A stretch of DNA of 64,000 nucleotides, taken from positions 5,527 through 69,526 of IMG/VR virus record IMGVR_UViG_3300017971_000283, one strand, 5' to 3'. Every line of letters begins with the position of its first letter. Position 1 is the first letter of the stretch. The notes beneath the pieces are model-generated. The model was not told where the DNA came from and searched no databases. It saw only the letters and a list, made by a program, of their open reading frames with translations. A program made the translations under genes and the position numbers. Source of the DNA: a virus. Shown here piece after piece: positions 1-27,681 of the stretch.

Positions 1-3000
1 ATTGATTAGCAAGAGCAGAAGCATATTCATCGGGTAATTTACCCATTCTATCTAGAGCTTGTTCATTAAAAGTATCATTGATATCATTAATTCCATTTTT
101 ATAGCTAGCTTCGATCATAGCATACCAATGCATATCATCAGTAATTTCTGTTTCTTTTAATCTGGAGGCAAACCCTTTATCTCTACTCCAAGATTGATCT
201 TCCATATAAGTTTGGACATCTTCTTGTTTTCCTAAGTCTCCAAATCGATAAAAATTTTCTTTATTTAATCCAAAAGCATCACCTATAAAAGAATTTTTTC
301 CAAGTATTGCTGATGTTCCTAAAAGTCCTGATGTAGAAAGTAGTTTTCCAAAACCACCTAATTCGTCTGATGCCCACTTAGAAAGTAATGCTCCACCTGG
401 ATCAGTCCATTCGGCAACAGCAGCACCTCCTGATTTCCATCTTCCCTCAACATCTCCACTTTTCATTGCTGCTGCAAATTGCTGACCTCCTGTCCTATAA
501 TTCTCACCAAATAATTTTTGACTCGCATAAACCATTGCAGGATCAGCAGAATAATCACCAGTACTTACATCTCCAACCTCTACCCATTTGCCGCCTGATA
601 CCATACCTCCCTCAGTTCTTTCAGTCATACCTCTACCGGCTTGCCAACCGACATTAACAAGACTCCCAACCCATCCCATTTGACCAAGACCTTCTGCAAC
701 TTTATCTAATTTTTTTTGAGTTTCCGTTTGTGCTGCTCCCTCAATTCTAAATCTATATGAAAAATGTTCTGCTATATCTGCAAAAGCACCTTTATTTGCA
801 ATGAGAAATTCTTTCATTTCTCCCATTGAAAGCCCATCTTTAAAAGCACCACCAAGTTTCCCGATTAATGACGTAAAGTTTTCTTTTAAATTTTCATCAA
901 GATCACTTAAAAAAGTGTCCATTAATAATTCAATAGTTGGCCCATATCTTTTTTGTCCCTCTAATCCTTCAATTCTCCATTCTCCCTTTTGTCTAACAGC
1001 TTGTTTTTCAGGGGAATCTCCTCGACCATATAAATTATTAAGTTCTTCTTCAAGTTGCCCCTTTAACCCTTCAACATAAGAGTCAATTTCGTTACCATCT
1101 AAAATTCCACCTCTAAAACTTTTTTTAGCTTTTTCAAGTTCTTCTTTATCTTTTTTTGCCCTTTCCTCATCTTCAAAAAGAATCATTTGCGCTCTTTTTG
1201 AAGCTTCTTCTTTTCCTCCCATTAATGGATCTTCTTTTACTCCCTTTTCATATTTTTTCATTAATTTTTCTTGTTCTTTTAAAGCCTTTTCCCTTGCCCT
1301 TACTTCATGATCAAGTTGCTTATCAACTATTGTCATATGTTTGTCATAATATAAATCCCAAAGGGCATCCCAGTCTTGGGCATATTGTTCTTGATCAGTA
1401 AACCATCTGTCAAGATTATCCAATTCCTTTTCATATTTATTCATACCCATTTGAGCTATTTCAATATTTAATTTATCATTTATTTCTTTTTTCTTTTTAT
1501 TTTCCTTTTCAGCAATTTTAATTAATTCTTTTGAAAGTTTTTCTTCTCTTATTTTTTTTTCTTTTACTGCTTTTTCTTCTATTTCTTTTTGTTTTTTTAT
1601 AGATTCCGATAATAACTTATCAGATTTTTCTTTTGCCTTTGCTCTAGCTTCTTCAAGTGTCATTACTTTTTTTACAGAGTCACCCTTTTTAAACATTGCT
1701 TCTGCTTCTTTCATACTTGATTCATAAGTTCTTTTATTCAAATCAAGCTCTTTTCTTTTTTGCTCATCAAGTTTTTTTAAGTTTTCTAAATATTGTTTTG
1801 TTGCATTTTCATTTATTCCCATTCTTTCTTTTTCAGCTTTTATTGTTGCTTCAGCTTTTTGTTTGATTTCTTCTTTTGTTCTTTTTGATTCCTCTCTTAA
1901 TTTTCTTGTGACATCGAGGAAACTTTCACTGCCTCCAATGGCGTCTTTCATCGCCCCTGAAAAACCCTTTAAACTTTTAGCTAAATCATCTTGTCCAATA
2001 AAACTTAATGCTTTGGCAAGTGTATTTACAAAAGTTGCCATATTTTCCAATATAGTATCGAAAAAACCAAGAAAAACGGATTTCATTCCTTCAACTGTTA
2101 CAGCACCTATATATTTGATCGATTCCCAAAAAGAAGCAAATGAGGCAGATGCACCATGAGTTTTTTCAATAATATATTCAGCAAAACCTTCCATCCCATA
2201 ATTAATTGTTTCAAAAGCCTTTTTCCCGGAATATTCAACTTCAATCCATGCTTTGGAAAAAGAATTAATTATTTCAATCATTGTTGCTCTTACACCTTCA
2301 ACATTTTCATCTAGCCATCTTCCTAATTGAAATCCGGCTACTGCTGCCATTAAAACACCAAGGGCAACCTGGATCATTGTGATTGATCCAGCGGCAACTT
2401 GAGCCCTTACACTATTTGTAGCCAGTACTTTATTAAAAGAGCTAAAAAGACCTGTTCCGGTAGCTACAGAAACATTATTAGCTTGAATAGCCGTATTATA
2501 TAACCATGTTGCTGCTGTTGTTGCTGCTGTAATAGTTTTTAATGTCGTCATTATTGCTATATAGGCCAAAACTCCTTGGCCTAATTTAACAAAAAAATCT
2601 GCAAGTTTTAAAATATTATCAGCATGATCTTTAATAAAACTTGCAGTATCTTTTAATGCCCCATAGATTGAGGCCTTATACTCATCAAAAACATTGATTG
2701 CTTGGTCTTGTAAAACTGAACTCAATTCTTTAAAAGCACCAGAAACAGTTGAAGACATTATACCGGCAAGCTCTTCAGTTTCACCACCAACATTATTAAG
2801 TTTTTCTTTTAAATCATCATATGTAGACAAGCTGTCTTTAATAATTAAAGCACTTGAAACCTGTTCTCTTCCAAATGCTTTTTCCATTTCTGTTGCTGTC
2901 CATCCAGCTTCAGATGCTTTTTCAAAAACTAATCTTAACTTATCTTGAGATGAATTAAGCTCATCAGTTGAAATACCAAGCATACCGGCAGCTTTCCCGG

Positions 3001-3958
3001 TACTTAGCATAATACCTTTCAACATATTACCTGCTTGACTGGCTTTGATACCACCATTGGCCATAGTGCCTAAGTATGCTGAAAGTGATTCAACTTCAAT
3101 ACCCATACCCTTTGCTACTGGTGCAGCATATTTAAAGGCTTCACCAAGCATATTGATATCTGTATTTGCTCTTGTACTCGTACTAACTAAAATATCAGTA
3201 AATCTTGAAAGGTCATTTACACCCAATCCCATTGCTGTCATAGAATCGGTTACAATATCAGAAGCCCTACCAAGTTCAAGTTCACCGGCAGTTGCAAGAT
3301 TTAAAATTTTAGGTAATGATGCTATTGAAGTTGCACTATCCCAACCGGCCAAAGCCATATATTTCAACGCTGTTCCTGCTTCTGTAGCACTAAATTTCGT
3401 CGTACTTCCTGCCTCTCTTGCTGCTTTTTGTAAGTCTTTAAATGCCTGCCCACCACCTTCAACACTCATATTGATATCAGACATAATACCGCCAACAGTA
3501 GTCATAGTCTGCTGGAAGGCTGAACCAATACTTAAAATTTCTTTGACCATATATTGTGCTGAAAATCCAGCAGCAAACCCCATCACCATACTTTTAAAAG
3601 AGGCTTTTATTTTATCAAATGATTTGCTTGTAGATGTGGCTTGGCTTTTAATTTTTTCAAAAGAAGAAGTAATGGTTTTTGTACCTCTTTCAATATTTGC
3701 AGTATCTAATTGAGGTCTTTTAATTTTTTCAAGTGAGGTTTGAGTTTTTATAGCACTTTTTTTAATTTGATCAAAAGAAGAAGTAACAATTTTCGTATTG
3801 GATTGAACTTTTGCAGTGTCTACTGAAGGGTCAATTTTATCAAAAGTTTTTTGCGTAGAATCAGCATCTTTCTGAATTTTACTTAAAGATTCAGAAATTA
3901 CTTTTTGACCTTTTACAAAATCAGAAGTATCTAGACTTACTTTAATTGGAGAGGGCAT
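1..3958 (-). CDS. Tail tape measure protein (TP901-type); 3' end lies outside the window
   Basis: ATG at 3956-3958 after AAGGA. Manual translation gives MPSPIKVSLDT...AAREAGSTTKFSATEAGTALKYMALAGW...ILNLATAGELELGRASDIVTD...MLGEAFKYAAPVAK, the TP901 TMP core. The frame is still open at the left edge, which explains its absence from the ORF track. Confidence 0.93.
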   Translation of the reverse strand, partial: MPSPIKVSLDTSDFVKGQKVISESLSKIQKDADSTQKTFDKIDPSVDTAKVQSNTKIVTSSFDQIKKSAIKTQTSLEKIKRPQLDTANIERGTKTITSSFEKIKSQATSTSKSFDKIKASFKSMVMGFAAGFSAQYMVKEILSIGSAFQQTMTTVGGIMSDINMSVEGGGQAFKDLQKAAREAGSTTKFSATEAGTALKYMALAGWDSATSIASLPKILNLATAGELELGRASDIVTDSMTAMGLGVNDLSRFTDILVSTSTRANTDINMLGEAFKYAAPVAKGMGIEVESLSAYLGTMANGGIKASQAGNMLKGIMLSTGKAAGMLGISTDELNSSQDKLRLVFEKASEAGWTATEMEKAFGREQVSSALIIKDSLSTYDDLKEKLNNVGGETEELAGIMSSTVSGAFKELSSVLQDQAINVFDEYKASIYGALKDTASFIKDHADNILKLADFFVKLGQGVLAYIAIMTTLKTITAATTAATWLYNTAIQANNVSVATGTGLFSSFNKVLATNSVRAQVAAGSITMIQVALGVLMAAVAGFQLGRWLDENVEGVRATMIEIINSFSKAWIEVEYSGKKAFETINYGMEGFAEYIIEKTHGASASFASFWESIKYIGAVTVEGMKSVFLGFFDTILENMATFVNTLAKALSFIGQDDLAKSLKGFSGAMKDAIGGSESFLDVTRKLREESKRTKEEIKQKAEATIKAEKERMGINENATKQYLENLKKLDEQKRKELDLNKRTYESSMKEAEAMFKKGDSVKKVMTLEEARAKAKEKSDKLLSESIKKQKEIEEKAVKEKKIREEKLSKELIKIAEKENKKKKEINDKLNIEIAQMGMNKYEKELDNLDRWFTDQEQYAQDWDALWDLYYDKHMTIVDKQLDHEVRAREKALKEQEKLMKKYEKGVKEDPLMGGKEEASKRAQMILFEDEERAKKDKEELEKAKKSFRGGILDGNEIDSYVEGLKGQLEEELNNLYGRGDSPEKQAVRQKGEWRIEGLEGQKRYGPTIELLMDTFLSDLDENLKENFTSLIGKLGGAFKDGLSMGEMKEFLIANKGAFADIAEHFSYRFRIEGAAQTETQKKLDKVAEGLGQMGWVGSLVNVGWQAGRGMTERTEGGMVSGGKWVEVGDVSTGDYSADPAMVYASQKLFGENYRTGGQQFAAAMKSGDVEGRWKSGGAAVAEWTDPGGALLSKWASDELGGFGKLLSTSGLLGTSAILGKNSFIGDAFGLNKENFYRFGDLGKQEDVQTYMEDQSWSRDKGFASRLKETEITDDMHWYAMIEASYKNGINDINDTFNEQALDRMGKLPDEYASALANQ

Positions 3959-4004
3959 ATCCGATCCTTATCGAATGAATATGACCCTCTCATTTTGGGG
4001 TTCA

Positions 4005-4370
4005 TTAAGTAGTTTTACTTGCTTGCCATTCCATGTGAACATTATCTAATGCTTTCACGAAACGACGAATTTTTTGTCTTTCTTCAAAATCCATTATTTG
4101 GTTCTCATCCAAATATCCGGTGATAGTTTGATAATCAATAGTTGAGGCTGAAAAGCCATCGCCGGTTTTATATAGACATAGTTCGCAATATATTTTGTAA
4201 ATATGTTGTACTCTTTCAAAATCTTGTTTAAGAGGTAATCTATCAACTTTCTTTTTACAGAGTCCATGTCCTTCATTTGCTTTTTTGATCCATTCTTGTA
4301 AGCCGCCAAAAGTATCTTCACCGGTTTTTTTATTTTTAATTTCTAAAATTACTCTGTAATAATCAGTGAG
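4005..4370 (-). CDS. Tail assembly chaperone extension (gpT-like), in frame with the upstream chaperone across a TGA
   Basis: 121 open codons LTDYYRVILE...STIDYQTITGYLDENQIMDFEERQKIRRFVKALDNVHMEWQASKTT*. It has no Met near its start and lies directly before the TMP gene. Confidence 0.75.
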   Translation of the reverse strand, partial: LTDYYRVILEIKNKKTGEDTFGGLQEWIKKANEGHGLCKKKVDRLPLKQDFERVQHIYKIYCELCLYKTGDGFSASTIDYQTITGYLDENQIMDFEERQKIRRFVKALDNVHMEWQASKTT

Positions 4371-4868
4371 TCAAGATTCTTCAAAATTATCTTTCTGAAT
4401 TTGAAAAATTTCTCTTTCAAGACTCATACTCAAAACAAATTCTTTAAATGCTTCAAGTTCAGGATCAGAAAGCCATTCATAGGCAGTTTTTACAGAGTAA
4501 GGAACCCAAGCATCAGGATTAGTAATTGTTTTTTTTGTAAAACTTTCACTTTCATCTTCAATAAAAAGTCGATTATAAATTTCCTCATGATTATCGGATG
4601 GCATATTTTCCCAATTCAAAATAATATGGGTTGCCGTTGCTTTATTTATATTTTCATTTACTACACTGTCAGGAATACTTTGTCCGAACCTAAGAGTTTT
4701 TAGATAAGGTTTGTTTAATTTTTTTACATAATCCTCATAATTTTTATTCCCATGCTTTGCAATTAGCACCTTGCTTCCATATTCTTCCATACCTGGAACC
4801 GGAACCCAAACGCCTTTTTCTGCCATTTTAAGATCATGACCCATTACTTTTTTGAGAGGATTTGCCAT
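4371..4868 (-). CDS. Tail assembly chaperone (gpG-like)
   Basis: Lies between the tail tube and TMP genes. True start MANPLKK follows AAGGAG. Contains GVWV, ILNWEN and PYS motifs typical of this chaperone class. Confidence 0.8.
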   Translation of the reverse strand: MANPLKKVMGHDLKMAEKGVWVPVPGMEEYGSKVLIAKHGNKNYEDYVKKLNKPYLKTLRFGQSIPDSVVNENINKATATHIILNWENMPSDNHEEIYNRLFIEDESESFTKKTITNPDAWVPYSVKTAYEWLSDPELEAFKEFVLSMSLEREIFQIQKDNFEES

Positions 4869-5000: not shown

Positions 5001-6383
5001 TTAATTACTTTTCTGAAACATAATCTGATAGTCATTTGTAGCTGAAACGCTTGCCTTCCAGGTCATGTTTTGCATAACATCAGCATTAACTCCTGTAGCT
5101 TGCCCACCAGGATTTTGCTGAATTTTTAGTCTTGGAATATATACTGCAATACTTTCGCCATCATTCCCAACAGACCTTACGGAAATTGAAAGTGCAGTAT
5201 TATTAATAAATTTTTCATAATATGTTTGACCATCAAAAAACATATTGAGATTACCAGTAATAGCAGAAAAACCAAACCCTACACCGGCATTACCTAACAC
5301 TCCAATACCAGACTGTCCTCTTGCATTATTGTTTAAAGTAAAGTTAAACTCTGAAATCAGAGTAGTGCCAAAAACAACTGGCGTATTGTCAATACTTAAA
5401 CTTGCAACATCTGATGTTGCATTCAAGGATTCATTAGTAGGCGCAGCAACAAGAGTACTATGAAAGGCTGAAGTATCAACATCAGTCGATACAAGATCAG
5501 CACCAATAAACTCCATACTCCCAGTAATAATAGCTTTACTTGTAAAAGTAAGAGTCATTTGACTTGGAGTCATTCCTCTAAAAAGAGTATATGCCCCAAC
5601 ATCATTATTAATTCGCTCAATACTAAAACTCTTTTTTGTTACTCCATCTTTCAAAAATGCAAATGGTACAAGATATCCGCTTGCAGCAACTTCATCGGTC
5701 AATGTTTCTTCTACTGTCAAATCAGTTGCCGTAACAGCAGATACAGTGACAACTTTATTATTAGTTGAAGTTGTGAATCCAACTAAAGTAATACACATTC
5801 CAACTTCAACTAGTGTTGTAAAATCATAAAGTGCTGCACTATTAATTTTCCCCGAAGCAATAGAAAGGTCACCCGGATCAATTACCCATCTTACATTTCC
5901 ATCAACAGTTTCAGTTGCAAGCGTATCATTCATTGTAAGTACAGTATCAGTCAATGAAAGAATTTCAAGAGAACCGGTATTTAGTGTTGAGCCTACAATT
6001 TGGACAAATTCACCGGCAGTAAATCTTTTTGTAAGATCAGTTACGCCAGCAATTTCAATTGTATCTGCTGTTACAGTACTTGTGACAGATCCCTGTGCTT
6101 TCCCATAAAAAGAATGAGCAAAAACACCTTCCAAAAGATCTTCATTCAAATTCTCAGTTGAAAGTTCAAAACTAACTGAACCTGATGGATTAGCTCCTAC
6201 AACAACCGCATCAAGACTTTTTCTATCACTCCTGATAGTATTTGAATCAGTTGTTTCAACGCCATGAGAAAGGCTTTCAGATGTAATACCGATTGATTTC
6301 ATTGTAGGTGTAGTTGGCAAAACACCAAAAGTAGTTTCTTTAATAACTGCAATATCAATTTGATTAGTTTCTGCAAAAGACAT
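5001..6383 (-). CDS. Major tail tube protein with internal accessory domains
   Basis: 460 aa. N-terminal ETTFG..P / SNTIRSDR / GSVSFEL and C-terminal FTLNNN / ITGNL.MFF / IPRLK motifs, strong AGGAGG SD, and position in the tail cluster. Confidence 0.8.
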   Translation of the reverse strand: MSFAETNQIDIAVIKETTFGVLPTTPTMKSIGITSESLSHGVETTDSNTIRSDRKSLDAVVVGANPSGSVSFELSTENLNEDLLEGVFAHSFYGKAQGSVTSTVTADTIEIAGVTDLTKRFTAGEFVQIVGSTLNTGSLEILSLTDTVLTMNDTLATETVDGNVRWVIDPGDLSIASGKINSAALYDFTTLVEVGMCITLVGFTTSTNNKVVTVSAVTATDLTVEETLTDEVAASGYLVPFAFLKDGVTKKSFSIERINNDVGAYTLFRGMTPSQMTLTFTSKAIITGSMEFIGADLVSTDVDTSAFHSTLVAAPTNESLNATSDVASLSIDNTPVVFGTTLISEFNFTLNNNARGQSGIGVLGNAGVGFGFSAITGNLNMFFDGQTYYEKFINNTALSISVRSVGNDGESIAVYIPRLKIQQNPGGQATGVNADVMQNMTWKASVSATNDYQIMFQKSN

Positions 6384-24811: not shown

Positions 24812-25039
24812 CTATTTGAATGGATCTTCCATCTTATCAATATCAGTTTTAATAAAAGCAATAATTCCCTTCAATCTTCCTTCAATATGTTTCAATGTTA
24901 TTCCATTTTCATAAAATTTTATTATTACTTTTATTAAATCTCTATGGAAACTTGGTATTTCATAATCTTCATTTTTCATTAATTTTACTATTTGAGAATA
25001 ATGTTTTGGTTTTAGCCTATAACAAAATTGATTATTCAT
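24812..25039 (-). CDS. Small protein, possible regulator divergent from the plus-strand operon
   Basis: 75 aa with AAGGGAG SD, transcribed divergently from 25281. Confidence 0.5.
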   Translation of the reverse strand: MNNQFCYRLKPKHYSQIVKLMKNEDYEIPSFHRDLIKVIIKFYENGITLKHIEGRLKGIIAFIKTDIDKMEDPFK

Positions 25040-25280
25040 TGTTATTAACTCCCTTATTTTGAATAAATATCAATTCTTATAAGTTACTAATTATAATTTT
25101 GTCAATCTGTTTTGAATTTTTTTGAATTCAATCGAAAACCTATAGATTTTTTCAGAATAACTTGAATTCAAAATCTATAACTATATCAATGCGTTATATT
25201 GACGATAATATTTTTATTTGATACCTTTTTAAAAAATCGAAAGGTAAAACCTTCCTGCTACAATAATCATAAGGAGAGAC

Positions 25281-25775
25281 ATGATGACAGACCAACAAGT
25301 AGAAAAGAAAGAGCCCGTCTATATTGAGTCAAACACAAATGATATTTTAAGACAATCTGAAGAAAGGCTTTTAGCTACTCAAAAAGCATTATTTAATGCT
25401 AATATGCGCCAATACCAATTAAACCAGCAATTTCAAAATCCTTATAATCAAAATCCTTATAATCAAAATCCTTATAATCAACAATATAGTAATCAACAGA
25501 ATCAACAACCACAACAACCTAAACCTGAACCACAACCTAAACAAAGACAAGAAAATTTAACACTATCAATGCTTAGTGTTATCGAACAACTCCATGCATT
25601 GCTAGAAATTTATAGTAATATAAATCCGACTATATATCCGGAACATCTAAAAAAACAAACAATAAAAGAAATTGAGCATTTGCGATCCTTTCAAACTCGT
25701 TTTAATGAAAATCCAATAGAGTCAAAAAGGATCTTAACCCTGGTGTCAAATGAAATGGCACCCAAACAAAATTAA
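25281..25775 (+). CDS. Q/N/P-rich low-complexity protein
   Basis: AAGGAG SD and (NPYNQ)x3 encoded by a 15-bp tandem repeat. Confidence 0.75.
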   Translation: MMTDQQVEKKEPVYIESNTNDILRQSEERLLATQKALFNANMRQYQLNQQFQNPYNQNPYNQNPYNQQYSNQQNQQPQQPKPEPQPKQRQENLTLSMLSVIEQLHALLEIYSNINPTIYPEHLKKQTIKEIEHLRSFQTRFNENPIESKRILTLVSNEMAPKQN

Positions 25776-25790
25776 GTAAAGGAGATTGTT

Positions 25791-26693
25791 ATGGACACAA
25801 CACCTGGTGGAAGTATTGGAACTGGAGATGCCGCCGTACTTGCTTTGCTTGCCGACACTGCAAGAGCAGGTAGAGGTGGCGGTTGGGGAGTAGGCGGTTG
25901 GGGAGGTGAAGGTGGAGGTTATGGAAGTGCTTATGGTAATATTGCAAACGCCGTAAGACTTGACCGAAATGCCCAACAAACTGAAGATCAGGCTGATTGT
26001 ACAAGAAATCTTTTCGGGCAAGCTTTTTCGAGTATTCAGAATGCTTTTGAAAATGGTACTCGTGACAGGCAGCAAGCAGCATTGTCCAGTCAGATTACAA
26101 ATGGCGAGTTCAGGATTTCTGACAGACTGCGAGATACTGAACTCAATTCTGTTCGGGAATCTGCTGATTTGGCACGACAGATTGCTGCTTGCTGTTGTGA
26201 TACTCAAAAAGGTTTTCTGGAACAAGCTCTGAGACAGCATGAATGTTGTTGTGAAACTCAAAAAGTAGTAATGCAGGAAAATCAGAAAACTCGTGATCAG
26301 ATTATGGATAATGAATTGCGACGAGCTACTGATGCAAATAACATCAATGCTACTGTAGGAGCAATCAATGGTGCTGCTGCTGCGAATACTGCTGCTATTA
26401 TTGCCGCTATTCGTGAAGGACACCATCATCCTCGTCCATGAAATAACGGACACTGCCCTTGCGGTGGTGGAAACGGTGGTGGCGGGGATAATGTTATGCT
26501 GTGTCATCAACCAGGGACACCAGCTCAACAAACTTTAATCGTACCACCTGAAGCAGTTGAAGGACATTTAAGGCATGGTGACTACTTGGGGGAATGCAGA
26601 CCATTGGCGGTAAACGAGAAAAAGCCGGAAGAAATAAAAAAGCCGGGAACAATAAAGAAAGAAAAACCGTCAATAGTTACAAACCCGAAATAA
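25791..26693 (+). CDS. Gly/Trp- and Cys-rich coiled-coil protein (ends 26441) with probable in-frame UGA readthrough into a CH...HLxHGDYLGxC domain (ends 26693)
   Basis: AAGGAG SD, GGGWGVGGWGG, ACCCDTQK and ECCCETQK. The frame continues HHHPRP*NNGHCPCGGGNGGGGDNVMLCHQPG...HLRHGDYLGEC. Confidence 0.7.
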
Positions 26694-26739
26694 AGTATGG
26701 ATTATGGTTGCTTGCAAGTTAGTTACTAAGTTTTAATTT

Positions 26740-26770
26740 AAGCCCCGGTTGAAATATACCGGGGCTTTTT
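26740..26770 (+). terminator. Intrinsic terminator-like hairpin
   Basis: AAGCCCCGGT-TGAAATAT-ACCGGGGCTTTTT. Confidence 0.75.
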
Positions 26771-26783
26771 AAGGAGGTATTTT

Positions 26784-26861
26784 ATGAAACGATTTATAAT
26801 CCCTCGAATTGCTCATTGTTGTGGCGGAAGTATAATCAACCCCTGTATGTTGAATAATTAA
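26784..26861 (+). CDS. 25-aa Cys/His-containing peptide (possible leader peptide)
   Basis: Perfect AAGGAGGT SD; MKRFIIPRIAHCCGGSIINPCMLNN. Confidence 0.55.
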   Translation: MKRFIIPRIAHCCGGSIINPCMLNN

Positions 26862-26896
26862 GGCATACAGGGGTTAATTTATAGGAGAAAATTATC

Positions 26897-27418
26897 ATGG
26901 AAATTATTATTTCAAAAGAATCAATCCATGCTCTCAACGAAATAATGCATGAACTATATATCGAATCGTACAAAATAAAAGGTATTGGGTGTGCATTATA
27001 TTCAATGGGATTAAAAGGCTTTAATTCTTTTACTAAAAATGAATCACACGAGAGATGGAAATATGGAAGTAAGGTAAAAAAATATATTTTGAATTTTGGT
27101 GGTAGAGTCATTCTCCCTATGATTCCTGAATCCGAAACAAAATACCCTAATGCTCTTGATGCAGTTACGATGATTCAAACTATGGATAGAGGATTGCTTG
27201 AATTTATTAATCAAAAAACTAAAGAAATCGCCGAAAAAAAAGAATGGGTTGTTGTAGATTATATCGGGGAAATTTGTGAAGATATGATAAAAGAATTTAA
27301 TGAAGTATCAGCAGTTGTTGAGAAAACAAAAATGATTGGTCCAGATCTTGTTGGATATGATATTTTTCTTTATGAACATTACCAACCAATGTCTGATAAA
27401 AGAATTGGAAAATATTAA
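26897..27418 (+). CDS. Ferritin-like protein
   Basis: ALNE...EL.....GLKGF..F...ES.ER....KY....GGRV.L..I matches the FtnA four-helix pattern; several ferroxidase residues look substituted. Confidence 0.75.
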   Translation: MEIIISKESIHALNEIMHELYIESYKIKGIGCALYSMGLKGFNSFTKNESHERWKYGSKVKKYILNFGGRVILPMIPESETKYPNALDAVTMIQTMDRGLLEFINQKTKEIAEKKEWVVVDYIGEICEDMIKEFNEVSAVVEKTKMIGPDLVGYDIFLYEHYQPMSDKRIGKY

Positions 27419-27420
27419 AA

Positions 27421-27455
27421 ATAAAGCCTCATGTATTTTATCATGAGGCTTTATT
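27421..27455 (+). terminator. Hairpin after ferritin-like gene
   Basis: ATAAAGCCTCATG...CATGAGGCTTTAT. Confidence 0.65.
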
Positions 27456-27468
27456 ACTGGAGGTAAAA

Positions 27469-27681
27469 ATGGAAAATGATAATAAAGAAATAAATATAAA
27501 TCTTACAAAAAAACAATTTTTTAATTTACTTTCAAAACTAGGAATAAGAAATTATCAATTAGGTAAAGATGAAAAAGAATTTGTAAATTTCCTTAATAAT
27601 GGAACTGTTGAAACAACCAAAAGTGATGGTATTACTTCTGAAGATGCCGGAACATTATCTCTTATTTTTAAGATAAGATAA
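27469..27681 (+). CDS. Hypothetical protein
   Basis: GGAGGT SD, 70 aa. Confidence 0.6.
   Translation: MENDNKEININLTKKQFFNLLSKLGIRNYQLGKDEKEFVNFLNNGTVETTKSDGITSEDAGTLSLIFKIR

What the first reader, a model, noticed from the sequence alone, without database searches (positions are those of the whole stretch)
25791..26693. Second in-frame UGA: Cys/Gly-rich protein extends into a CH...HGDYLGxC domain (readthrough or selenocysteine)
Seen: ...CAT CCT CGT CCA TGA AAT AAC GGA CAC TGC CCT TGC GGT GGT GGA AAC GGT GGT GGC GGG GAT AAT GTT ATG CTG TGT CAT... The 18 codons between the stop (26439-26441) and the ORF at 26496 are in frame and read as a protein linker (NNGHCPCGGGNGGGGDNV). The Met at 26496 falls inside a V-x-x-C-H...H-L-x-H-G-D-Y-L-G-x-C motif. 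A 6-bp hairpin CACTGC-CCTT-GCGGTG starts about 9 nt after the UGA, where bacterial SECIS or readthrough stimulators sit, although its loop lacks the usual SECIS G. Inference: short and long isoforms are made, as with the Qbeta coat/A1 pair. The His/Cys context makes Sec possible.
Basis: partly seen in the sequence, partly recalled or inferred. Interest (0 to 1): 0.8.

Follow-up and report, generated by a model that had tools for sequence, protein, structure and literature searches.

The report
Leaky UGA extends phage coiled-coil protein
A phage gene ends in a UGA stop that, as in eight distant relatives, runs on in frame into a small Cys/His domain, so the phage most likely makes a short and a long form of one protein from one message.

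Summary
ORF 25791-26441 (216 aa) ends in TGA. The frame stays open for 83 more codons to TAA at 26691-26693 and carries a C-H...H-x2-H-G-D-x2-G-x-C motif.

The window alone would not be convincing, but comparison is. Eight other distinct loci, 27-50% identical, show the same layout. Each has a His-rich end, always TGA, then 88-180 stop-free in-frame codons, ended by TAA or TAG. Seven of the nine loci carry the mini-domain. In one relative the first mini-domain lies upstream of any start codon.

Four sister loci end in TAG instead and keep the extension open in the -1 frame. Three of these have an X_XXY_YYZ slippery site 2-3 codons before the stop.

TGA is otherwise an ordinary stop in this 69.5-kb phage. 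I found no SECIS, no tRNA-Sec and no Cys-containing homologue.

Best reading: programmed UGA readthrough giving two isoforms, as with Qbeta coat/A1. Selenocysteine is unlikely.

The protein is a long coiled coil with two CCC triplets. It usually sits next to a phage ferritin-like gene, and its function is unknown.

The same phage joins its tail-chaperone G and T parts by an in-frame UGA. Unchecked AI notes from this scan report UGA readthrough candidates in other tailed phages, on other genes.

The parts
25779..25784 (+). Shine-Dalgarno AAGGAG, 6 nt before ATG 25791
   Evidence: Read. 38 of 58 ORFs of 100 aa or more in this phage have an SD 4-mer core upstream, against 8% at random positions.
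25791..26438 (+). Short isoform (216 aa): short helix, Gly-rich disordered stretch, one long helix (residues 52-209) with two CCC triplets, and a His-rich tail HHHPRP
   Evidence: 61 homologues of the N part; AlphaFold2: H11-25, H52-209. Weak match to phrog_16490, E 1.1e-7.
26439..26441 (+). In-frame UGA, the proposed readthrough site. It lies in a segment predicted disordered (model residues 209-231)
   Evidence: TGA sits at the equivalent place in 8 other distinct loci.
26451..26466 (+). 6-bp hairpin CACUGC/CCUU/GCGGUG, 9 nt after the UGA. It may stimulate readthrough, but this is not shown
   Evidence: Present in the MFE fold. The fold is not better than shuffles (z -0.33, -0.54). No structure is shared across 7 loci.
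26442..26690 (+). Readthrough extension, 83 codons: Gly/Cys linker, mini-domain, Lys/Pro-rich tail
   Evidence: The other two frames have 6 and 5 stops here. GC is 0.46, like the N part (0.45), against 0.30 for the window.
26490..26603 (+). Cys/His mini-domain NVMLCH...GHLRHGDYLGECRP, predicted strand-strand-helix
   Evidence: alignment A5: C, G and C invariant. AlphaFold2 pLDDT is 90.5 on the 18-row alignment. No Pfam family. No PDB sequence match. No clear fold match (best Z 3.3).
26691..26693 (+). TAA, the true end of the long isoform
   Evidence: The second stop is TAA in 8 of 9 loci and TAG in 1.
26741..26770 (+). Terminator-like hairpin AGCCCCGG / 10-nt loop / CCGGGGCT followed by a T run. 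It lies after the second stop, not after the UGA
   Evidence: Read directly. The scan did not list it because its loop limit is 8 nt.
26897..27418 (+). Ferritin-like gene, a conserved neighbour of the family
   Evidence: Pfam PF00210, E 1.4e-12. A ferritin-like gene is also adjacent in L003, L006, L038 and L045.

Best explanation
This is a programmed UGA readthrough site in a gene of a 69.5-kb tailed dsDNA phage. Most ribosomes stop at UGA 26439-26441 and release a 216-aa protein: a Gly-rich head, a roughly 160-residue continuous helix with two CCC triplets, and a His-rich tail. A minority decode the UGA with a near-cognate tRNA, most likely tRNA-Trp (inferred). They then translate 83 more codons to UAA. 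This adds a flexible Gly/Cys linker, a 35-residue Cys/His strand-strand-helix mini-domain and a basic tail. One mRNA therefore gives a short major and a long minor isoform in a set ratio, the logic of Qbeta coat/A1. What is shown here: the in-frame UGA is conserved, the extension evolves as protein, sister lineages use a -1 frame instead, and TGA is otherwise a normal stop. What is inferred: that readthrough happens, its level, the residue inserted, and any role for the 3' hairpin. The protein's role is unknown. Its usual neighbour is a phage ferritin-like gene, and elsewhere the mini-domain occurs as a repeat in large proteins. Of eight such proteins scanned, three carry outer-membrane or Ig/cadherin-like domains, and the copies found in loci sit in proteins that begin with signal-peptide-like hydrophobic N-termini. 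My guess is that the long form displays a binding or metal-coordinating module at the end of a coiled-coil rod.
For: 1) Conservation. Nine distinct loci have an N-domain homologue ending in a His-rich tail, then TGA, then 83, 180, 89, 114, 96, 144, 88, 131 and 154 stop-free in-frame codons. These are the window, L003, L005, L007, L011, L018, L029, L038 and L045, 27-50% identical to the window over the read-through protein. The second stop is TAA in 8 and TAG in 1. The other frames hold 3-8 and 1-32 stops.
2) All 9 first stops are TGA, although TGA ends only 26 of 97 greedy ORFs in this phage.
3) The extension is coding. The mini-domain is in frame in 7 of 9 loci. An alternating VNVTVN / IDIDV segment is shared by L003, L007, L018, L029, L038 and L045. 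The mini-domain folds at pLDDT 90.5.
4) No independent start. In L003 the first ATG/GTG/TTG after the TGA is at codon 83, but the first mini-domain starts at codon 60. L038 and L045 have a single GTG (codon 19 and 22) before domains at codons 82 and 85. In the window, ATG 26496 has no SD core, whereas the other three starts of the + strand module printed there (25281, 25791, 26897) have one, as do 38 of 58 long ORFs. An AAGGAGG also precedes the small ORF that starts at 26784 (read).
5) An alternative recoding route in sister loci. Four TAG-ending loci (L006, L044, L025, L022) keep the -1 frame open for 135, at least 46, at least 15 and 99 codons. L044 and L025 have C_CCC_CCT and L022 has A_AAC_CCT, 2-3 codons before the stop. 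The nine TGA loci have no such heptamer in their last 25 codons, and their -1 frame closes within 10 codons or fewer.
6) No fused form. None of the 61 hits covers more than 74% of the query. Of the best 150 profile hits in 1.84 billion representatives, 85 are N-only and end where the TGA lies, 64 carry only the mini-domain repeats, and 1 spans the junction.
7) The N part can stand alone. L008/L009 and L021 end in TAA with no extension.
8) Standard code. Large ORFs have 0 in-frame TGA. 25 of the 26 TGA-ended ORFs have 38 or fewer open codons after the stop.
9) The same phage joins a tail assembly chaperone (phrog_8233, E 1.7e-14) to a chaperone T-like part (phrog_3817, E 5.7e-5) by an in-frame UGA. 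The first start codon there is at codon 86 of 121, and there is no slippery site.
10) The terminator-like hairpin follows the second stop, not the UGA.
Against: No protein or ribosome data exist, so readthrough and its level are inferred. The window's own linker is only 18 codons, and an ATG sits just before the mini-domain, so independent initiation cannot be excluded for this phage alone. Four of the nine loci have a Met within three residues of the domain's first Cys. No 3' context or structure is conserved across the family. The +4 base is A, A, C, G, G, G, G, C, G. Fold z-scores for the 60 nt after the UGA range from +0.87 to -4.32, and the RNAalifold consensus is only -0.6 kcal/mol. L006, one of the four -1 frame loci, has no slippery heptamer and has an ATG in the -1 frame; L044 also has one. 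Those loci could therefore be overlapping separate genes. The host is unknown.
Confidence: 0.72

Rival explanations
1. The UGA encodes selenocysteine. A SECIS hairpin just downstream recruits host SelB, and the full-length 300-aa selenoprotein is the functional product.
For: The stop is always UGA (9 of 9). The surroundings are His/Cys-rich. Five of nine loci have a Cys within 5 residues after the UGA. A hairpin starts 9-15 nt after the UGA in several loci. L038 and L045 pass a generic bacterial-SECIS-like filter whose criteria I recalled from memory.
Against: No SECIS family appears in an E-value scan of 25000-27500. The SECIS-like filter is met in only 2 of 9 loci, and there 41 of 300 and 117 of 300 shuffles also pass. 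No shared structure is found. The UGA lies in a low-complexity linker predicted disordered, and no redox motif such as CxxU or UxxC is conserved. Four of nine loci have no Cys nearby. None of 86 N-domain-bearing hits has Cys at that place. Sister loci reach the extension through a -1 frame with no UGA at all. N-only forms end in TAA. The same phage has an in-frame UGA in its tail chaperone, where Sec makes little sense. No tRNA-Sec was found in this phage (no tRNA or tmRNA gene at all) or in 5 related records (0 of 5).
Confidence: 0.05
2. These are two separate genes. UGA is a full stop, and the 65-aa Cys/His protein is started on its own at ATG 26496 or by termination-reinitiation. The shared frame is incidental.
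For: ATG 26496 sits just before the domain. Gene callers list the 65-aa ORF separately. Met occurs near the domain start in 4 of 9 loci. The linker is short in the window (18 codons).
Against: 9 of 9 loci are in frame (chance about (1/3)^9) with stop-free linkers of 2 to 85 codons before the domain (20 in the window). L003, L038 and L045 have no ATG before the domain, and L003 has no start codon of any kind. There is no SD core before 26496 in a phage that uses SD at most genes. Linker segments are conserved as protein. Starting at 26496 would cut into the first predicted strand.
Confidence: 0.08
3. UGA is decoded efficiently here, because of context, a weak host RF2 or a phage factor. The long form is then the main product and the short form is a by-product. 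This is obligatory rather than leaky readthrough.
For: No fused stop-less form exists, yet the extension is strongly conserved. A second gene of the same phage depends on UGA readthrough. Pro or His codons precede the stop. The review read notes that C-terminal proline sequences prolong termination pauses.
Against: 25 of 26 other TGA stops in the phage are followed by short, closed frames, so termination at UGA must generally work. N-only homologues with TAA exist. Sister loci use -1 slippery sites, which typically give minority products (the typical level is recalled, not tested).
Confidence: 0.1
4. This is a decaying fusion gene: a nonsense mutation split a once-continuous ORF, and the extension is a relic.
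For: None beyond the presence of a stop.
Against: The same stop codon occurs at the same domain boundary in 9 loci that share only 27-50% identity, with intact extensions and a confidently folding domain.
Confidence: 0.02

Closest known systems
Qbeta (ssRNA coliphage) coat protein / A1 readthrough protein
   Same: A UGA at the end of a complete protein is followed by an in-frame extension, giving a major short and a minor long isoform from one message. The details of Qbeta (decoding by tRNA-Trp at a few percent) are recalled, not checked here.
   Different: This is a dsDNA tailed phage and the gene is not a coat gene. The gene family, the extension and the host are unrelated. No product has been observed.
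Retroviral gag-pol: in-frame UAG readthrough in MuLV versus -1 frameshift in other retroviruses
   Same: Related lineages reach the same downstream module either by stop-codon readthrough or by -1 frameshifting (review passages read). Here there are 9 TGA in-frame loci against 4 TAG loci with the extension in the -1 frame.
   Different: The stop is UGA, not UAG. No pseudoknot was identified. This is a bacterial system, and the frameshift in the sister loci is itself only inferred.
Lambda gpG/gpGT tail assembly chaperone and C-terminal accessory domains added to phage structural proteins by programmed frameshift
   Same: A fixed-ratio C-terminal extension of a phage protein is made by recoding (G/GT described in the passage read). 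The addition of Ig-like domains by frameshift is recalled from Fraser et al. 2006 and was not read here.
   Different: The recoding event is readthrough, not a frameshift. The added module is a 35-residue Cys/His domain with no Pfam family. Whether the carrier protein is in the virion is unknown.
Bacterial selenoprotein genes (for example fdhF)
   Same: An in-frame UGA with a hairpin a few nucleotides downstream.
   Different: There is no SECIS-like conserved structure, no Cys homologues and no redox motif. The UGA lies at a domain boundary in a disordered linker.

Membership tests
Programmed stop-codon readthrough (Qbeta A1 type) | An in-frame stop followed by an open extension, conserved in homologues | tested here: met
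   9 of 9 loci with an in-frame extension have TGA followed by 83-180 open codons.
Programmed stop-codon readthrough (Qbeta A1 type) | The extension evolves as protein | tested here: met
   The mini-domain is conserved in 7 of 9 loci. Linker segments are shared. pLDDT is 90.5.
Programmed stop-codon readthrough (Qbeta A1 type) | The extension has no start of its own | tested here: inconclusive
   This is clear in L003, L038 and L045. In the window an ATG without an SD core precedes the domain.
Programmed stop-codon readthrough (Qbeta A1 type) | Both isoforms are detected and a near-cognate residue is found at the stop | not testable with these tools
   Needs western blot or mass spectrometry.
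Bacterial selenoprotein gene | A SECIS hairpin at the right distance with a conserved loop | tested here: not met
   No Rfam SECIS match. The generic filter passes in 2 of 9 loci, at rates that shuffles also reach. No consensus structure.
Bacterial selenoprotein gene | Cys-containing homologues at the Sec position | tested here: not met
   0 of 86 N-domain-bearing hits among the best 150. The one spanning hit has W.
Bacterial selenoprotein gene | The host has selA, selB, selC and selD | not testable with these tools
   The host is unknown and the record is a virus contig. No tRNA-Sec in 5 related virus records.
Stop-codon reassignment (tables 4 and 25, or late-gene recoding in phages) | TGA is frequent inside genes and is not used as a stop | tested here: not met
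   Large ORFs have 0 in-frame TGA. TGA ends 26 of 97 ORFs. There is no suppressor tRNA.
Programmed -1 ribosomal frameshift | An X_XXY_YYZ heptamer, with the downstream ORF in the -1 frame | tested here: not met
   The window has no heptamer in its last 25 codons, and its -1 frame closes 2 codons after the stop. Sister loci L044, L025 and L022 do meet this.
Ferritin-like superfamily (neighbouring gene 26897-27418) | Match to Pfam PF00210 above the curated cut-off | tested here: met
   48.2 bits against a cut-off of 24.5, E 1.4e-12.
Known fold or family for the Cys/His mini-domain | A match to a Pfam family or a solved structure | tested here: inconclusive
   No Pfam match. No PDB sequence match. 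Foldseek best E is 2.6. VIA-align best Z is 3.3.

The most novel reading that the evidence does not exclude
This phage uses UGA readthrough as a general expression device. It replaces the canonical -1 frameshift of the tail chaperone G/GT pair, and it also sets the ratio of a coiled-coil ferritin partner with and without a displayed Cys/His module. Across the family the same extension is reached either by UGA readthrough or by -1 frameshifting. As far as my library searches show, this would be the first such pair of interchangeable recoding routes described for a gene family of tailed dsDNA phages. A covarying stem-loop about 13 nt after the UGA in one subgroup (L038, L007, L045) may be a bacterial readthrough stimulator.
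Probability: 0.35. Interest if true: 0.78.

Novelty: new member of a known kind. Interest (0 to 1): 0.64.

Why it matters
Programmed stop-codon readthrough is textbook for RNA phages and for eukaryotic viruses. My searches of the held library found no description of it for tailed dsDNA phages or for this gene family. This family offers a natural comparison for study: 9 UGA readthrough loci, 4 loci with the extension in the -1 frame, and 2 without an extension. The same phage also has a second readthrough candidate in its tail chaperone. If confirmed, three things follow. Gene callers systematically truncate such proteins: 85 of the 86 N-domain hits among the best 150 end at the UGA position. 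An uncharacterised, widespread 35-residue Cys/His domain gains a first functional context. A link between a phage ferritin-like gene and a Cys/His-rich coiled-coil protein becomes testable.

Tried and rejected
Genome-wide TGA reassignment was rejected. Large ORFs have no in-frame TGA, and TGA ends 26 of 97 ORFs.

A phage suppressor tRNA or tRNA-Sec was not found. There are no tRNAs in the window or the genome. The five related records hold one tRNA-Thr and one odd tRNA-like gene, and no tRNA-Sec.

SECIS tests found no support: Rfam E-value scan, single folds and alignment fold.

A -1 frameshift in the window itself was rejected: there is no heptamer and the -1 frame is closed.

Function of the N part gave little. 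There is no Pfam match and only a weak phrog_16490 match of unknown function. The ESM Atlas gave only viral hypothetical clusters and generic coiled-coil look-alikes. tblastn against 50,697 GenBank phage records found nothing.

The fold of the mini-domain has no clear match, and the Atlas rows were weak.

Host identification led nowhere. The nearest TerL relatives are Xanthomonas and Stenotrophomonas siphophages at 47% identity, which is uninformative for a phage of 30% GC.

Relatives of the G/GT chaperone were not found in viral contigs, so conservation of that second UGA is untested.

I could not decide whether the W in the spanning protein P0071 is TGG or a TGA called under table 4. Its 1,391-nt contig could not be reached.

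Literature. Searches gave search listings and abstract starts only. From PMC5009743 I read passages found by term. No supplements were opened. These searches found no paper describing this family, a dsDNA-phage UGA readthrough extension or a phage selenoprotein. Subscription journals are not in the library.

Tools not used: the look-up of sequencing runs, read laying, complex prediction.
Full report
THE OBSERVATION. The window is 64,000 bases of a single 69,526-base virus record of 30% GC. On the + strand, ORF 25791-26441 encodes 216 aa and ends ...HHHPRP-TGA. The same frame stays open for 18 codons (NNGHCPCGGGNGGGGDNV) up to ATG 26496, then continues to TAA at 26691-26693. The hairpin is in the minimum-energy fold, but the region folds no better than shuffles (z -0.33). 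Both parts lie in one GC-rich island (0.41-0.47, against 0.21-0.35 in the flanks). A terminator-like hairpin with a T run at 26741-26770 follows the second stop, not the UGA (read; the scan missed it because its loop is 10 nt).

IS TGA A STOP IN THIS PHAGE? Yes. Large ORFs contain no in-frame TGA. In a greedy ORF set, 64 ORFs end in TAA, 26 in TGA and 7 in TAG. One member of that set is an antisense artefact over the target, and it displaced the target's own ORF. Of the 26 TGA-ended ORFs, 25 have at most 38 open codons after the stop. The phage has no tRNA gene. Genome-wide recoding is therefore excluded.

COMPARATIVE EVIDENCE. A word-indexed search found 61 homologues of 175-251 aa. All cover only the N part, with at most 74% of the read-through query covered. 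Their C-termini are His-rich. From viral, metagenome and genome contigs I obtained DNA for 15 distinct family loci.
- Nine loci (the window, L003, L005, L007, L011, L018, L029, L038 and L045) end the N domain with a His-rich tail and TGA. They then run on in frame for 83, 180, 89, 114, 96, 144, 88, 131 and 154 codons, ending at TAA in 8 and TAG in 1.
- Over the same stretches the +1 frame has 3-8 stops and the +2 frame has 1-32.
- These read-through proteins are only 27-50% identical to the window's.
- Seven of the nine extensions carry the Cys/His mini-domain; L003 has three copies.
- Six extensions share an alternating VNVTVN / IDIDV segment, including the two that lack the mini-domain.
- In L003 no ATG, GTG or TTG occurs in the first 83 codons after the TGA, yet the first mini-domain begins at codon 60. 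L038 and L045 have one GTG each, far upstream of the domain.
- In the window, ATG 26496 has no Shine-Dalgarno core. The other starts of this + strand module do, as do 38 of 58 long ORFs, against 8% at random positions.

A SECOND ROUTE TO THE SAME EXTENSION. Four sister loci (L006, L044, L025, L022) end in TAG. They keep the -1 frame open for 135, at least 46, at least 15 and 99 codons; two of these loci end at the contig edge. In L006 and L044 the -1 frame carries the mini-domain. In L022 it carries a linker-like segment and a basic tail. L044 and L025 have C_CCC_CCT and L022 has A_AAC_CCT, 2-3 codons before the stop. The nine TGA loci have no such heptamer, and their -1 frame closes within 10 codons. 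L006 has no heptamer, and both L006 and L044 have an ATG in the -1 frame, so separate overlapping genes cannot be excluded there. Two further loci (L008/L009 and L021) end in TAA with no extension, which shows that the N part can work alone.

A profile of the nine read-through proteins, searched against 1.84 billion representatives, gave 3,734 hits. Of the best 150, 85 are N-only proteins whose match ends at the protein's end, at the profile position just before the UGA. A further 64 contain only mini-domain repeats, and 1 (P0071, 353 aa) spans the junction. P0071 reads ...HGHHGGR-W-KCDSEP.... It comes from a 1,391-nt contig. I could not see its DNA, so the W is either a true TGG or a TGA called under table 4.

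SELENOCYSTEINE. An E-value Rfam scan of 25000-27500 gave five weak matches, none to a SECIS family. Folds of 81 nt around the UGA in seven loci gave z from -0.07 to -1.12. Folds of the 60 nt after the UGA in all nine gave z from +0.87 to -4.32. A generic bacterial-SECIS-like filter, whose criteria I recalled from memory, passed only in L038 and L045, where 41 and 117 of 300 shuffles also pass. RNAalifold on seven loci gave -0.6 kcal/mol. No redox motif is conserved around the UGA, and four of nine loci have no Cys nearby. The UGA lies in a segment predicted disordered (model residues 209-231). No Cys-containing homologue was seen. No tRNA-Sec occurs in five related records. Together with the -1 frame sister loci and the TAA-ended N-only forms, this makes Sec unlikely, at about 5%.

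One point deserves follow-up. L038, L007 and L045 share a stem-loop about 13 nt after the UGA. Two of its base pairs covary (CC/GG against UU/AA) through non-conservative amino-acid changes, and an identical 10-mer lies just downstream. With three sequences this is only a lead for a readthrough stimulator.

WHAT THE PROTEIN IS. AlphaFold2 on the nine-row alignment has low overall confidence (mean pLDDT 61). It predicts a short helix (11-25), a disordered Gly-rich stretch, one long helix (52-209) that holds both CCC triplets, a disordered linker containing the UGA, and then a compact unit at pLDDT 80-90. Folded alone with 18 aligned copies, the mini-domain reaches pLDDT 90.5, with two strands and a helix. 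It has no Pfam family, no PDB sequence relative and no clear fold match (Foldseek best E 2.6; VIA-align best Z 3.3, rmsd 2.7 over 42 residues). The same module occurs inside ordinary continuous proteins. Some begin with a hydrophobic, signal-peptide-like N-terminus (my reading of the sequences; no predictor was run). Others are large proteins with up to 20 copies, and a few of the eight I scanned carry outer-membrane or Ig/cadherin-like domains. The N part matches only phrog_16490, of unknown function.

A ferritin-like gene (PF00210) lies next to the family gene in the window, L003, L006, L038 and L045. A small gene with a weak EncFtn-like match (21.7 bits, below the cut-off of 27) lies nearby in L007, L008/L009 and L011. 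That makes 8 of 13 loci with usable flanks. A phage lysozyme is also near in L003 and L007. I therefore guess at a coiled-coil rod, with its Cys triplets possibly cross-linked, that works with the phage ferritin. Its minor long form would display a metal-binding or adhesive module. This functional part is inference.

THE SAME PHAGE, A SECOND UGA. The tail assembly chaperone (4371-4868, minus strand; phrog_8233, E 1.7e-14) ends in TGA. It runs on in frame for 121 codons that match a tail chaperone family (phrog_3817, E 5.7e-5). The first start codon is at codon 86, there is no slippery heptamer in the last 40 codons, and the other frames hold 5 and 16 stops. I checked it only this far and found no relatives to test conservation. 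It fits a host in which UGA readthrough reaches useful levels, and it argues against Sec.

COMPARISON AND NOVELTY. The closest known system is Qbeta coat/A1. The split between readthrough and -1 frameshift within one family mirrors retroviral gag-pol, and the outcome mirrors lambda G/GT (passages read). My library searches found no report of this family, of programmed UGA readthrough adding a domain in a tailed dsDNA phage, or of a phage selenoprotein (listings and abstract starts only). The scan itself holds 33 earlier, unchecked AI notes on UGA readthrough candidates in tailed phages, on other genes. I file this as a new member of a known kind of recoding, with good comparative support and no direct protein evidence.

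VERDICT. The readthrough interpretation is supported (confidence about 0.7). Selenocysteine is not supported. Interest is 0.64.

Noticed in passing
window 4005-4868 (minus strand): The tail assembly chaperone (phrog_8233) ends in TGA at 4371-4373. It continues in frame for 121 codons that match a tail chaperone family (phrog_3817). The first start codon is at codon 86 of the extension, and there is no slippery heptamer. This looks like a G/GT pair joined by UGA readthrough instead of a -1 frameshift. No relatives were found to test conservation.
   Followed up: partly
L006 3031-3501; L044 3078-3320; L025 around 3070-3124; L022 around 900-1320: Sister loci of the family end in TAG and carry the extension in the -1 frame. 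C_CCC_CCT (L044, L025) or A_AAC_CCT (L022) lies 2-3 codons before the stop, which suggests a -1 programmed frameshift. L006 has no heptamer.
   Followed up: partly
L038 6943-6970; L007 2978-3005; L045 about 5228-5257 (minus strand): A stem-loop about 13 nt after the UGA is shared by three loci. Its pairs covary (CC/GG against UU/AA) through non-conservative amino-acid changes, and an identical 10-mer, GCCGGGAGCG, lies just downstream. It may be a readthrough stimulator, but there are too few sequences to judge.
   Followed up: partly
window 26784-26861: A 25-codon ORF (MKRFIIPRIAHCCGGSIINPCMLNN) has a strong AAGGAGG Shine-Dalgarno. It sits between the terminator-like hairpin at 26741-26770 and a second hairpin at 26838-26875 (read).
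   Followed up: no
window 25281-25775: A 164-aa Gln/Asn/Pro-rich protein with NPYNQ repeats heads the same + strand module. It has only a weak match to phrog_22773.
   Followed up: no
proteins P0066, P0070 and other hits; L033, L035, L039, L041, L046: The 35-residue C-H...H-x2-H-G-D-T-L-G-P-C module is a widespread repeat with no Pfam family. It has up to 20 matched stretches in a 1,652-aa protein, and some of the proteins scanned also carry outer-membrane barrel or Ig/cadherin-like domains.
   Followed up: partly
L048 1500-1571: The complete related phage record G004 carries a tRNA-like gene above the Rfam tRNA cut-off (38.5 bits). Its anticodon loop appears to have only 4 nt, and ARAGORN could not name an anticodon.
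   Followed up: partly
window 1-3958 (minus strand; the ORF runs off the window start): A 2,245-aa ORF lies directly downstream of the chaperone pair and is presumably the tape measure protein. It explains why the + strand ORFs with many in-frame TGA at 2667-4049 are antisense artefacts.
   Followed up: no
window 25700-26750: A GC island (0.41-0.47 against 0.21-0.35 around it) covers the N part and the extension together. It produces a spurious 253-261-aa antisense ORF at 25746-26531.
   Followed up: yes
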